Source: a virus | Lineage: Duplodnaviria > Heunggongvirae > Uroviricota > Caudoviricetes | DNA length: 19,134 bases | Virus record (IMG/VR): IMGVR_UViG_2690316344_000004 | Strand: one strand, 5' to 3' | Position numbers: made by a program | In this document: piece by piece, positions 1-3,000 of the stretch | Layout of the letters: the number at the start of each line of letters is the position of its first letter | How positions within the stretch are numbered: position 1 is the stretch's first letter

Positions 1-3000
1 CCGGAATTGCCGTTTCCACTGCATCAGTTTCTGGTACTGGCGACGAGAGAGTATCAGTTGCGCTCTGATTTCTTCCTTCATCTTCAAACACGCCCTTTGT
101 AGTCAGGTATTCAGTAATGTATTTGTTCAGTGCCACAGGGTCTTTGTGAATGTCGATCGGACGTTCACGGACAAGGCCAAAAATAGTCTGGCGGTCGTAG
201 CGAAGGGCATCAGGCTGTTTGCGCATTGATGCCGAGATACGCTTCCAGTCTTCGCGGTCGTTGTCGATAACTTCATTTTTTGCCCAGCGATGGATGCTGC
301 CGTCAATGTTTCCGGCATCCACATCACCAGGCCAGAGAGCGTAGGCCAGTTCGTCATCCAGTGTTTTCCATGTCTGCTTGTATTCGCGATGAATGGCAGC
401 AATGACCGGGCTGATTTTTCCTGTTGAATTTTCAGTGTGCTGTTGATTGGTTCTGGCGCGGGCGAGATCAACAACAGACGTGTATTTTCCGGTTTCCTTG
501 CGTTCACCTTCGCGACGTTTTTTCCAGATGCGCATCTCTGCCTGAATTTCGGGCCATTTGGCACCAGGCTTACATTTATGCTTAACCCACCCGATGGCAT
601 GCAGCTTAAGCTCCGGATACATGGCGTTAACATCTGGCATTTTCATCAACGCTTCAACGATATGTCCGTCGAATGTTGCCATGTCTTCCTGCAACAATTC
701 CTGTGCGCTAATAACCATATCAACGGTGATGTTTTCACATGTGTCGAACTTAACCATGACAGCGTTCTGTACTTCAGGGGCCAGCTTGTCAAAAGTGACG
801 TTCATCGGATCGGATTCAGTCTCAACCGGGACAAAGGAAGCAGACTCCTCATCCCAGCGGTTTTCCTGCATATATTCAGCATCCCAGGAATCGAGGGCAG
901 GGCGGGGTATACCGGGTTTATCCTCGCAAACAAGAAATTTATAAGCGCAGTCCTGAGCAGCCGGATAATGTTCCAGGAATTGCCAGTGAAATTTTGCGCG
1001 GGCGCGACGTTCATCACCGGCTTCAATGGCAGTGGCTACAGCGACGGCACCTTCTTCCTTTATTGCCTGTTCGTCCGGAATGGCGGCGCAAATAAAGACT
1101 TTACTCATTTTGTTTTACCTCATTACAGATTTAAGGGTGAACAAATCCCTGCCATTGCTGGCATATAAGAATGAAACCGGATATTTATTACGGAACTGTT
1201 TTAAAGACCTGCCGGGATTTCGTTATTATCCTGGTGAATAACTTTATCGACCGGGTAACAGTTACCGGGAATTTTCTGTTCGGTTGCTGCAGTCACACAC
1301 TCCTGCATTGTCCTGTGAACACTGACTGCAATATCAACTGGCTCTCCGGAAACAAGAAAAACTGTCAGAACAAGTGCAAATGCTGTATTCATTGCCAGCA
1401 TCCTTTTTGTATCGGACGTAAACGGGCCAGCATTGAAAGAATGCATATTTTATTTAATAGCTCCCGTTCGTGTTTTCTCTTGTTAATGGCATCTTCAGTA
1501 AATACAGGGTTACTGATAGTGACACCAATTTCAAAACAACCTTCAGACGTATTAACGTTTGGTAATAACGTTTCCATTATCGCGTCCTCAACAATGAATT
1601 TTGTGATGCGGTGCCTGGTGCCTCCAGGTGACGTTAACCAGTTAACAATTAACGCCGGATACAGAGAATCCACCCATAACACTGTTTTTGGTTTTAACTG
1701 TTCCGCGTGCGCTCAGCCGCATTCACCGCATCACAAAATTCACTTTAAAAAGGGCGGCAGAGCAGTCACGGAGTAAAACTGATACCGCCAAACGTCACCA
1801 GAAAATTGATAACAGAGGGCGTTGCAGCGGGGTTGTCACTTAAGCGTATGGTCAACCTGACAACCCGGTGTCCTCAACGGGGGAAGGAATAACCCCGCCA
1901 TACTTACCGCCGCGCCATTTCGCGGATTGCCACAACCGGAAGCGCACGGTCGACGAAAATTTAACGACAGGCTATCTATGAACCAGCTACCTCGCCGTGC
2001 GCTTTCGCGTTATGGTCTGACTTTTCAGGGAAATATCCTTTCAGTAAACTGTCAGTGCCGGATTCTTATCCGTGTCCGGCGCACGACCACACGCTGTCAC
2101 GAGAGGTCTCCATTCTCAACCAGTAACCTCAATGGAGGATAAAATGTCAGAGCAGGAGTTAAAACTTGGTGCATGTTATTGTGTTCTCAAGGAGCTGGTA
2201 CACATGCTTCCATCTACTCAGTATCAACAGTTAGTTGGCAATTTAAATCAGCGAATCGAAGCTATGTTAAAATCTGATGGTTTTAATAACGTAGAAACGC
2301 TGATGCTAAAAAGATATCTTGATGGATTAATCAGATAACATTTTTTTACGGCGTTCATATTCGTTAATATTTATGAAGCCTGTTGCCAGAAGCAGTTCGT
2401 TAATTTCATGGTTGTTTGGCTGTTTCTGGCTCTTTGAGCTGGGATCTTCCACTTCTTTTTCTGCAAATTGTTTTGCTGTATCCTCTGTGCCATGGATATT
2501 TAAAGCTGTATCTGAAAACAGCCCAGTAAACGCATCGCGCACATTACGAGCCATATTATCAGTGTCTTTTTTTGTTACCGATTCCAATTCAAGTTCGTTC
2601 AGACGATGACGAAGTGTGTGTGCTGCAATCTCCTGGATTGAAGGAGGTAAATCTTTAAATTCCATCGTCAACCTCATCAGTCAGTGTTTCTTGCTAACCA
2701 GCGATGCGCGCCAGCTGCGGTTTTAAACGTTTTACTTTTGGTATACGTCATCGCGGTGAAGGTGCCGTCCTGGTTAGGGAACACACCGCATACCAGAGAT
2801 TCGTTGTTGCCAAGATCGATAGTATCCATGCTGACCTCATTTCCCCTTAACGCCGGGGTAGCGGAACAAAAACCTGCTGCATAGTTATTAAAGTTGAACC
2901 CTGCCGTCATGTTCTTACGCATCGGGCTGGCTACTTAACCCCTGACCACTGCCTGGTAACTCGAGGTATTGCCCTGTATTGTGTGGGACGGGATGGGTTG

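What the first reader, a model, noticed from the sequence alone, without database searches (positions are those of the whole stretch)
2145..2338. Strong-RBS small ORF antisense to the dicB operon
A 64-codon ORF on the plus strand has a consensus GGAGG RBS at ideal spacing and an unbiased, helix-compatible sequence. It lies in the roughly 500-bp stretch between the ydfB/C-like gene and DicF, which is non-coding in the leftward operon, and it overlaps the 3' end of the ydfB/C-like gene by 12 nt in convergent orientation. It could be an unannotated small protein, or its transcript could act as an antisense modulator of the toxic dicB operon.
Basis: seen in the sequence. Interest (0 to 1): 0.5.

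Follow-up and report, generated by a model that had tools for sequence, protein, structure and literature searches.

The report
Small prophage gene opposite dicB operon
The 64-codon reading frame is very probably a real small prophage protein, but public databases already list it as a hypothetical protein, so it is a modest finding: its function is unknown, it faintly resembles the stress-response regulator IraP, and other prophages carry different small genes at the same spot.

Summary
The ORF is present as described, at 2144..2338 (+); the ATG is one base left of the stated start. It has GGAGG 5 nt upstream and a 12-nt tail-to-tail overlap with a leftward 116-aa gene. It lies 340 nt to the right of DicF, on the opposite strand.

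From this sequence alone it is not beyond chance. Comparison makes it a real gene:
- dN/dS is 0.22-0.31 across E. coli, Salmonella and Citrobacter.
- Homologues of 35-45% identity and the same length occur in Edwardsiella and Salmonella prophages.
- The AlphaFold model is a confident three-helix bundle.

It is not unannotated. It is RefSeq WP_001295058.1 and PHROG 4987, both of unknown function, and 152 of 5426 complete E. coli genomes carry it.

Its family sits at the edge of the IraP anti-adaptor family. Two relatives pass Pfam's cut-off; this protein does not.

Two further points emerged. The same hairpin leader, RBS and ATG precede at least four unrelated small ORFs in other dic loci, so this is a swap slot. 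Six of seven distinct family contexts examined have a convergent neighbour ending in one conserved tail motif.

No consensus promoter or terminator was found. The antisense-regulator idea is geometrically possible but untested.

The parts
2144..2338 (+). 64-codon ORF plus stop. The product is a 7.4-kDa, near-neutral, soluble protein modelled as three helices. It is RefSeq WP_001295058.1 and PHROG 4987.
2134..2138 (+). Shine-Dalgarno GGAGG, 5 nt before the ATG. It is conserved in every locus that carries an ORF in this slot (one Salmonella locus has GGAGAG).
2108..2137 (+). Leader hairpin H3. CTCCATT (2108-2114) pairs with AATGGAG (2131-2137), which covers most of the SD. In 8 loci 5 of 7 pairs are invariant while the loop varies. 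Isolated, it folds at -6.8 kcal/mol.
2086..2107 (+). Leader hairpin H2. It is degenerate in this window but present with compensatory stem changes elsewhere: ACACG/CGTGT, CTCCAT/ATGGAG, CCCAAC/GTTGGG, CCCAGC/GCTGGG, and CTCCAC/GTGGAG in K-12.
2057..2080 (+). Leader hairpin H1, GCCGGA...TCCGGC (-13 kcal/mol). It is present in every related locus, including K-12 Qin, which has no plus-strand ORF.
2022..2050 (+). Candidate weak sigma-70 promoter read by eye: TTTTCA, 17 nt, TAAACT (8 of 12). It ends 6 nt before H1 and is below the scan's threshold. This is inference only.
   Evidence: Sequence. Not listed. Similarly placed weak candidates are visible in the sequences.
1850..2085 (.). Block to the right of DicF that 4315 of 5426 E. 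coli genomes match at least in part (K-12 as far as 2085). It is probably part of the DicF precursor region of the leftward transcript.
2327..2677 (-). Convergent 116-aa gene. Its N-terminal domain is that of PHROG 2151. Its last ~24 residues (2330-2401, stop codon 2327-2329) are the tail motif NELLLATGFININEYERRKKMLSD, which accompanies the small ORF in other contexts.
1752..1803 (-). DicF sRNA
1389..1577 (-). dicB (62 aa). The Pfam DicB match covers residues 36-97 of the 97-aa ORF 1389..1682.
2677..2922 (-). DUF1391 (YdfA-like) first gene of the leftward operon
3011..3039 (-). Leftward early promoter, the dicBp/pL equivalent: TTGACA, 17 nt, TATAGT (11 of 12). Its transcript must cross the ORF in antisense to reach DicF and dicB.

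Best explanation
This is a genuine small accessory gene of lambdoid prophages, similar in kind to a moron. It points rightward inside the leftward early (dicB-type) operon.

Shown:
- The frame is under purifying selection.
- It belongs to a family of 64-67-aa proteins found in Escherichia, Salmonella, Citrobacter and Edwardsiella prophages.
- In every locus examined it lies on the strand opposite its flanking early genes.
- It models confidently as a soluble three-helix bundle.
- It occupies a slot where one conserved three-hairpin leader, GGAGG and ATG are followed in other prophages by at least three unrelated small ORFs.

Inferred:
- It is transcribed from a weak promoter just left of the first hairpin, independently of the repressed leftward promoter.
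- Its translation may be damped by the hairpin that pairs with the SD.
- The product acts by binding another protein. The family aligns to the last two-thirds of the RssB anti-adaptor IraP, lacking IraP's first ~18 residues.
- Its target would then be either RssB (stabilising sigma-S) or, as I think equally likely, the conserved C-terminal tail of the convergent neighbour that travels with it.

Any antisense effect on DicF/dicB expression would be a by-product of the geometry rather than the selected function.
For: Coding:
- dN/dS is 0.27 (E. coli vs Salmonella), 0.31 (E. coli vs Citrobacter) and 0.22 (Salmonella vs Citrobacter). Changes are most frequent at codon position 3. The other five frames carry 4-8 stops.
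- The two E. coli point variants seen are synonymous.
- Homologues of 34-45% identity have the same length and no internal indels.
- AlphaFold gives pLDDT 88 and pTM 0.62, with helices 3-20, 24-43 and 49-63.
- PGAP annotates it and PHROG 4987 matches it.

Mobility:
- It is in 152 of 5426 complete E. coli genomes.
- It occurs in different neighbourhoods: a dicF locus, Salmonella elements carrying C4/IsrK RNAs, Citrobacter beside a DUF1391 gene, and Edwardsiella near int/xis. It always opposes its neighbours.
- G+C is 35-40% against about 53% immediately to its left.

Slot:
- The identical leader, RBS and ATG precede a 69-aa, a 61-aa and a 102-aa ORF (PHROGs 4274, 10133, 8894).
- Those ORFs are found in 597, 387 and 65 genomes.
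- K-12 shares the DNA only up to 2085.

Leader:
- RNAalifold predicts three hairpins. 92.6% of cells pair, against 25-45% in slid controls. Five pairs in H2 show compensatory change.

IraP link:
- PF10796 is the top Pfam hit for 7 of 11 distinct family members.
- Two members reach the gathering score of 23.2 bits: P0008 at 24.5, and P0006 at 24.2 when scored as the 103-aa called protein, whose match runs into the N-terminal extension. NCBI names both of them IraP.
- hhalign gives E = 3.7e-4.
- In that register (ORF residue i = IraP residue i+18), the modelled helices and loops of the two proteins coincide: IraP 2-38, 42-58, 67-82.

Tail:
- Six independent convergent neighbours, with unrelated or differently built N-terminal regions (two pairs share a domain), end in [ED]xL[LR]Lx(2)Gx(5)E[YF].
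- They overlap the ORF by 4-33 nt.
- The tail has dN/dS 0.23.
Against: - No expression data were found, and no paper mentions the protein.
- The promoter scan lists no plus-strand site near the ORF and no terminator. My candidate promoters are 8-9 of 12 matches read by eye.
- The leader as a whole is not unusually stable (z = -1.4), and its minimum-energy fold does not use H3 as drawn.
- H1 and H2 also exist in K-12, which has no plus-strand ORF. The same helices pair 87.4% on the minus strand. The hairpins may therefore serve the leftward transcript.
- The tail association could be simple physical linkage, since the two genes overlap. Citrobacter keeps the ORF without an intact tail gene.
- No match in 50,697 deposited phage genomes.
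Confidence: 0.6

Rival explanations
1. The main selected function is at the RNA or transcription level. Rightward transcription through the slot collides with, or pairs with, the leftward early transcript. This lowers leaky expression of the toxic downstream DicF and dicB in lysogens. The reading frame would be secondary cargo.
For: - The ORF lies wholly inside the path of the leftward operon (promoter at 3039-3011, DicF and dicB downstream), so its mRNA would be fully complementary to that transcript. K-12 work shows DicF is processed from such a polycistronic RNA, with RNase III involved.
- The opposed orientation is kept in every locus, whatever the cargo ORF.
- The leader is conserved even where the cargo is swapped.
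Against: - Codon-position bias and dN/dS of 0.2-0.3 show selection on the protein.
- Homologues diverged to 35-45% amino-acid identity keep length and motifs.
- No consensus promoter was found.
- K-12 Qin keeps DicF and dicB without any plus-strand ORF.
- In Salmonella and Edwardsiella the family sits in loci without DicF.
Confidence: 0.15
2. It is specifically a prophage-borne IraP paralogue: an anti-adaptor that binds RssB and stabilises sigma-S in the lysogen.
For: - Pfam IraP is the top-ranked Pfam hit across the family and passes the cut-off for two members.
- NCBI names those two members IraP.
- hhalign aligns residues 12-64 to IraP 30-83.
- Modelled helix boundaries coincide in that register.
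Against: - The window protein is below every curated cut-off.
- It lacks IraP's first ~18 residues of helix 1.
- Reciprocal sequence and fold searches do not recover IraP.
- Short helical proteins readily give spurious profile matches; designed helical proteins scored better than IraP.
Confidence: 0.2
3. The ORF is not a gene. It is a chance open frame that annotation pipelines propagate, and it is conserved only because the DNA serves the leftward operon.
For: - ORFs of this size are common in wrong frames here, and the GGAGG-ATG pattern is not enriched.
- PGAP omits it in some genomes that carry the identical protein sequence.
- One deletion allele breaks its C-terminus.
- There are no expression data.
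Against: - dN/dS is lowest in this frame, and every other frame is closed by stops.
- The family extends to 35% identity with conserved length in different genomic contexts.
- AlphaFold gives pLDDT 88 from a 6-sequence alignment.
- The ORF is more conserved than its real neighbour: dN 0.075 against 0.25, and dS 0.28 against 0.65.
Confidence: 0.05

Closest known systems
IraP (YaiB), anti-adaptor of RssB; Pfam PF10796, NCBIfam NF007598, PDB 8gkv
   Same: Both are small, soluble and all-helical. The family aligns to IraP residues ~20-83, and the modelled helices and loops fall at the same aligned positions. The C-terminal motif is shared (L-x-N/R-Y-[ILV]-x-x-L-[ILV]). Two family members pass Pfam's cut-off and are named IraP by NCBI.
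   Different: - 64 aa against 86 aa; it lacks the first ~18 residues of IraP's long helix.
- The window protein scores 14.4 bits against the 23.2 cut-off.
- It is encoded in prophage early regions, not at the chromosomal iraP locus.
- IraP was not recovered by reciprocal profile or fold searches.
- Function is untested.
Phage morons (accessory transcription units inserted between conserved genes of lambdoid phages; Juhala et al. 2000, as cited in PMC4104026)
   Same: It is present in some prophages and absent from close relatives. Its base composition is distinct. It is oriented independently of the surrounding operon. Its boundaries coincide with gene starts.
   Different: No clear promoter or terminator of its own was found. 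It sits in the early-left operon rather than the late region, and it shares one fixed leader and RBS with alternative cargo genes.
Alternative cargo ORFs of the same slot: PHROG 4274 (69 aa, O157:H7 WP_001133037.1), PHROG 10133 (61 aa, WP_001133046.1), PHROG 8894 (102 aa)
   Same: Identical upstream hairpins, GGAGGATAAA spacer and ATG position. Same opposed orientation between the leftward early genes and DicF. All are of unknown function.
   Different: The protein sequences are unrelated. Each comes with a different C-terminal part of the convergent neighbour gene.
dicBF operon of Qin in E. coli K-12 (ydfABC-dicF-dicB-ydfDE; PMC10448788)
   Same: Same leftward layout: repressor, promoter, DUF1391 gene, DicF, dicB, DUF1482 gene. 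K-12 shares the DNA of window positions 1850-2085, next to DicF.
   Different: K-12 has ydfB and ydfC and no plus-strand ORF. Here an unrelated 116-aa gene and the 64-aa ORF take that place.

Membership tests
IraP anti-adaptor (Pfam PF10796) | Whole-protein score at or above the gathering cut-off of 23.2 bits | tested here: not met
   The window ORF scores 14.4 bits, E = 0.062. Relatives P0008 (24.5) and P0006 (24.2, scored as the 103-aa called protein with its N-terminal extension) pass. P0134 (23.1) and P0131 (22.1) fall just short.
IraP anti-adaptor (NCBIfam NF007598, equivalog) | Score at or above 78 bits | tested here: not met
   No hit for the window ORF. P0006 scores 26.8 bits.
IraP anti-adaptor | Full-length ~86-aa architecture, including the N-terminal part of helix 1 (residues 1-20) | tested here: not met
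   hhalign aligns ORF 12-64 to IraP 30-83. The ORF begins at about IraP residue 19.
IraP anti-adaptor | Same helix-loop layout over the shared region | tested here: inconclusive
IraP anti-adaptor | Binds RssB and stabilises sigma-S | not testable with these tools
   Needs two-hybrid or pull-down assays and RpoS half-life measurements.
PHROG 4987 (phage protein family, function unknown) | Full-length profile match | tested here: met
   E = 3.1e-49, residues 1-64 on profile positions 1-64. P0008 and P0009 also match.
Phage moron | Present or absent between otherwise related prophages, at a gene boundary | tested here: met
   152 of 5426 genomes carry it. About 924 genomes match at least 80% of the 1850-2146 query, which ends in the leader. 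K-12 lacks it.
Phage moron | Base composition different from its flanks | tested here: met
   G+C is 0.35-0.40 over 2100-2500 against 0.53-0.55 over 1700-2100.
Phage moron | Own promoter and own terminator | tested here: inconclusive
   The scan finds neither. There are only 8-9 of 12 promoter candidates read by eye, and a weak A+T-rich hairpin followed by T7 after the stop.
cis-antisense regulator of the dicB operon | Complementary to the leftward transcript | tested here: met
   The ORF lies between the leftward promoter (3039-3011) and DicF/dicB.
cis-antisense regulator of the dicB operon | Transcribed, and changes DicF or DicB output | not testable with these tools
   No expression data were found.
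YdfB / YdfC (for the neighbouring gene) | Sequence similarity to K-12 YdfB or YdfC | tested here: not met
   BLASTP with E up to 10 finds nothing. There is no significant Pfam hit. It matches the N-terminal half of PHROG 2151.

The most novel reading that the evidence does not exclude
The small protein and the conserved C-terminal tail of its convergent, overlapping neighbour form a cognate binding pair: an IraP-like 'anti-adaptor plus docking tail' module. Lambdoid prophages move this module as one unit into a dedicated slot of the early-left operon. The slot has a fixed hairpin leader that hides the RBS and can take several alternative small-gene cassettes. The module would set the stability or activity of an early prophage regulator, or of RssB and sigma-S, in the lysogen.
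Probability: 0.15. Interest if true: 0.6.

Novelty: new member of a known kind. Interest (0 to 1): 0.33.

Why it matters
For annotation the finding adds little, because the gene is already called. It matters in three smaller ways.

1. If the IraP link is real, prophages in ATCC 25922, ST131 and the O104:H4 outbreak lineage carry a truncated anti-adaptor-like protein. That protein could alter the host's general stress response.
2. The dicF/dicB locus has been studied as a purely leftward operon. In about a sixth of complete E. coli genomes (about 924 of 5426) it has a rightward expression slot with interchangeable small genes. Anyone studying DicF or DicB regulation outside K-12 should take this into account.
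3. The recurring pairing of the small protein with one tail motif on otherwise dissimilar neighbours is a concrete, cheap hypothesis to test.

Tried and rejected
- tblastn against 50,697 deposited phage genomes: no match.
- One-genome-per-species scan of genome contigs: no confirmed relative.
- Exhaustive HMMER over 1.84 billion representatives: only 6 hits, so the family is narrow.
- BLASTP against IraP: nothing.
- PADLOC: no defence-family hit for the ORF, its neighbour or the 69-aa and 61-aa cargo ORFs; the 102-aa ORF gave only a weak hit, E 0.003.
- Rfam: nothing in 1850-2340 apart from DicF.
- Folding the leader alone: not significantly stable, z = -1.4.
- LexA box upstream (the idea of an SOS-controlled antirepressor): none seen by eye in the sequence. 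Rejected.
- The upstream in-frame starts (GTG 2072, ATG 2132) were rejected. They have no RBS, the ATG at -12 is not conserved in the distant loci, and all family members begin at the same Met.
- Literature searches for the protein sequence, its accession, its PHROG, or antisense transcription at ydfC/dicF found nothing relevant. The search for an IraP structure paper returned only the unrelated aminopeptidase IRAP.
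Full report
**1. The observation**

The ORF exists. The ORF listing shows a frame open from 2072 to 2338 on the plus strand, and the ATG preceded by a ribosome-binding site is at 2144. Translating from 2145, the stated start, gives eight stops, so the start is one base off. The ORF is 2144..2338: 64 codons plus TAA. GGAGG lies at 2134-2138, with the 5-nt spacer ATAAA before the ATG. A leftward 116-aa ORF (2327..2677) overlaps its end by 12 nt.

Rfam places DicF at 1752..1803 on the minus strand (76.7 bits). Pfam identifies dicB, a DUF1482 (YdfD-like) gene and a DUF1391 (YdfA-like) gene on the minus strand. 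A near-consensus leftward promoter lies at 3039-3011.

Two details need correcting. First, the 116-aa neighbour is not related to K-12 YdfB or YdfC; it carries the N-terminal domain of PHROG 2151. Second, within this window alone the signal is not beyond chance. GGAGG-N4-9-ATG occurs 6 times against 3.2 +/- 1.8 expected, and 60-80-codon ORFs in wrong frames are frequent nearby.

**2. Is it a gene?**

Comparative data say yes.

- *Annotation and spread.* The exact DNA is in 152 of 5426 complete E. coli genomes, 148 of them at 99% identity or more. These include ATCC 25922, 55989, the O104:H4 outbreak lineage and some ST131 strains. RefSeq annotates it as WP_001295058.1, hypothetical protein. 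The exact protein is on at least 1000 public contigs.
- *E. coli variants.* The point variants I read (A186G and G48A) are both synonymous. A186G also removes the stop codon of the opposing gene, lengthening it by 7 codons. The one damaging allele is an 11-nt deletion that rewrites the last 7 residues. I read it in L009; the three records in the 90-95% identity band probably carry it.
- *Selection.* The orthologues in Salmonella (86% identity) and Citrobacter (72%) give Nei-Gojobori dN/dS of 0.22-0.31. Changes are most frequent at third positions. All five other frames are closed by 4-8 stops.
- *Distant relatives.* An exhaustive HMMER search and a second profile search added proteins of 34-45% identity from Edwardsiella tarda and Salmonella. 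They are 65-67 aa long, align end to end, and share motifs (L-K-x-G-A, V-L-K-E-L-V, Y-x-x-x-L).
- *Structure.* AlphaFold on a six-sequence alignment gives a three-helix bundle with pLDDT 88 and pTM 0.62.
- *Physical properties.* The protein is 7.4 kDa, pI 6.5, and not hydrophobic.
- *Family.* It matches PHROG 4987 (unknown function) over its full length at E = 3e-49.

The gene is real with high probability, but it is not new to the databases. No paper mentions it.

**3. Surroundings: a swap slot**

The DNA of window positions 1850-2146 is matched at least in part in 4315 of 5426 E. coli genomes. In K-12 Qin the match covers 1850-2085 and ends there; ydfC follows. In about 924 genomes the match reaches at least 80% of that query, which ends at the ATG.

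In the loci I read where the leader runs to the ATG, what follows it differs:

| Cargo ORF | PHROG | Complete E. coli genomes |
|---|---|---|
| 64 aa (this ORF) | 4987 | 152 |
| 69 aa (O157:H7, WP_001133037.1) | 4274 | 597 |
| 61 aa (WP_001133046.1) | 10133 | 387 |
| 102 aa (unannotated in strain E423) | 8894 | 65 |

All four belong to PHROGs of unknown function. Apart from one weak hit for the 102-aa ORF (E 0.003), none matches PADLOC defence models.

The shared leader contains three hairpins, which RNAalifold recovers from eight loci:
- H1 (2057-2080) is almost invariant.
- H2 (2086-2107) is weak in this window. Elsewhere it has five pairs with compensatory changes.
- H3 (2108-2137) pairs CTCCATT with AATGGAG and so covers most of the SD. 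Its stem is largely invariant (5 of 7 pairs) while its loop varies.

Overall 92.6% of cells pair, against 25-45% when the partners are slid. The same helices pair 87.4% on the minus strand. H1 and H2 are also present in K-12, which has no ORF, and the leader alone is not unusually stable. I therefore cannot say which strand uses these hairpins.

The distant family members in Edwardsiella and Salmonella have the same leader design with different stem sequences.

**4. Surroundings: the convergent partner**

In every locus the small ORF opposes its flanking genes. In six of the seven distinct contexts its end also overlaps a leftward gene by 4-33 nt; Citrobacter is the exception, described below. 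The N-terminal parts of those neighbours are mostly unrelated or differently built. They include a PHROG 2151 domain, a YdfC-like domain, an XRE helix-turn-helix protein and a 74-aa protein. All six nevertheless end in the same ~20-residue motif:

- NELLLATGFININEYERRKK
- NDLLLHAGFKEIGEYEHRKK
- ERLLLDAGLISMAEFTSKYG
- DSLRLDIGMMSMAEYTSRHG

Between E. coli and Salmonella the neighbour has dN/dS 0.39 overall and 0.23 in the tail. Citrobacter keeps the ORF with only a degraded remnant of the tail region.

The other cargo ORFs likewise come with their own C-terminal part of the neighbour. Salmonella carries two such cassettes in tandem. This may reflect functional pairing. It may also reflect block inheritance between two recombination-prone conserved flanks.

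**5. What it may do**

The only family signal is IraP, the anti-adaptor that protects sigma-S by binding RssB.

*For:*
- PF10796 is the top Pfam hit for 7 of 11 distinct members.
- The Edwardsiella protein (24.5 bits) passes the 23.2-bit cut-off, as does the Citrobacter protein (24.2 bits) when scored as the 103-aa called protein with its N-terminal extension. NCBI names both IraP.
- hhalign aligns ORF residues 12-64 to IraP 30-83 at E = 3.7e-4.
- In that register the modelled helices and loops of the two proteins coincide.

*Against:*
- The window protein scores only 14.4 bits.
- NCBIfam and BLASTP give nothing for it.
- hhalign probability is 37%.
- The family profile does not retrieve the solved IraP chain 8gkv.
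- Fold searches return only generic helical hits.
- The ORF lacks IraP's first ~18 residues.

I treat it as a probable distant, truncated relative, with function unproven.

**6. Expression and the antisense idea**

The scan finds no plus-strand promoter near the ORF and no terminator. By eye there is an 8-of-12 promoter (TTTTCA, 17 nt, TAAACT, 2022-2050) ending just before H1. Similarly placed weak candidates with different sequence occur in the Salmonella and Edwardsiella loci. After the stop codon there is a weak A+T-rich hairpin and a T7 run.

[quoted passage not shown] That work does not address the plus strand or these strains.

A plus-strand mRNA would be fully complementary to the leftward transcript, so an antisense or collision effect is possible. 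But the sequence constraints are those of a protein, and the family also lives in loci without DicF. I rate antisense regulation as a possible side effect, not the main function.

**7. Verdict**

It is best described as an accessory small gene in a conserved rightward slot of the dic-type early operon, marginally IraP-like, and paired with a conserved tail on its convergent neighbour. Interest is modest.

Noticed in passing
window 2086-2146; loci L007, L008, L011, L012: The same leader, GGAGGATAAA spacer and ATG precede four unrelated plus-strand ORFs in different E. coli dic loci: 64, 69, 61 and 102 aa, found in 152, 597, 387 and 65 of 5426 complete genomes. The 102-aa ORF is unannotated in strain E423.
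   Followed up: partly
window 2330-2401 (minus strand; stop codon 2327-2329); L003 4163-4522, L018 4201-4425, L022 4188-4748, L024 3184-3720, L025 3184-3495: The gene convergent with, and overlapping, each member of the small-protein family ends in one conserved tail motif ([ED]xL[LR]Lx(2)Gx(5)E[YF]). The N-terminal regions of these genes are mostly unrelated or differently built. This may be a cognate binding pair or only physical linkage.
   Followed up: partly
window 2057-2137; alignment A4: Three conserved hairpins lie upstream of the ORF. H2 shows compensatory changes between loci, and H3 pairs with the SD. H1 and H2 are also present in K-12 Qin, which has no plus-strand ORF, so the strand that uses them is unresolved (92.6% paired on plus, 87.4% on minus).
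   Followed up: partly
window 2329 (position 186 of the ORF); L013-L017: A common A-to-G variant is synonymous in the plus ORF (Leu62 TTA to TTG). It destroys the TAA stop of the opposing gene and lengthens that gene by 7 codons. In the loci examined that carry this variant, PGAP does not annotate the small ORF; in L017 it calls the lengthened neighbour instead.
   Followed up: yes
L009 (strain CU37RT-2), equivalent to window 2314-2324: An 11-nt deletion near the ORF's 3' end shifts the frame of the last 7 residues. Read in L009; the three complete E. coli genomes in the 90-95% identity band probably carry it. It also removes one arm of the weak hairpin after the ORF.
   Followed up: partly
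L002, L004, L022, L023 (Salmonella): In Salmonella the small ORF and its leader sit in elements that carry C4 antisense RNA and IsrK copies with Phage_ASH genes, rather than DicF and dicB. They still share the block corresponding to window ~1830-1950.
   Followed up: no
L001 4022-4493 (strain FDAARGOS_536): In another carrier strain a RelE/ParE-RelB toxin-antitoxin pair lies between the DUF1391 gene and the repressor. This is a second variable accessory position in the same early region.
   Followed up: no
window 9319-9493, 13738-13984, 14064-14254: Rfam finds a sok antitoxin RNA (hok/sok), three tRNA genes in a row and an STnc100 sRNA further along the prophage.
   Followed up: no
whole window: No complete E. 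coli genome matches the whole window. The best covers 83% at 94.4% identity, so this prophage is a mosaic not represented as such among the 5426 genomes.
   Followed up: no
L006 (Citrobacter freundii) 520-831: The source annotation starts the Citrobacter homologue 39 codons upstream (103 aa). That extension contributes to its IraP profile match (profile positions 3-82). It lies over the leader hairpins and is probably not translated.
   Followed up: partly
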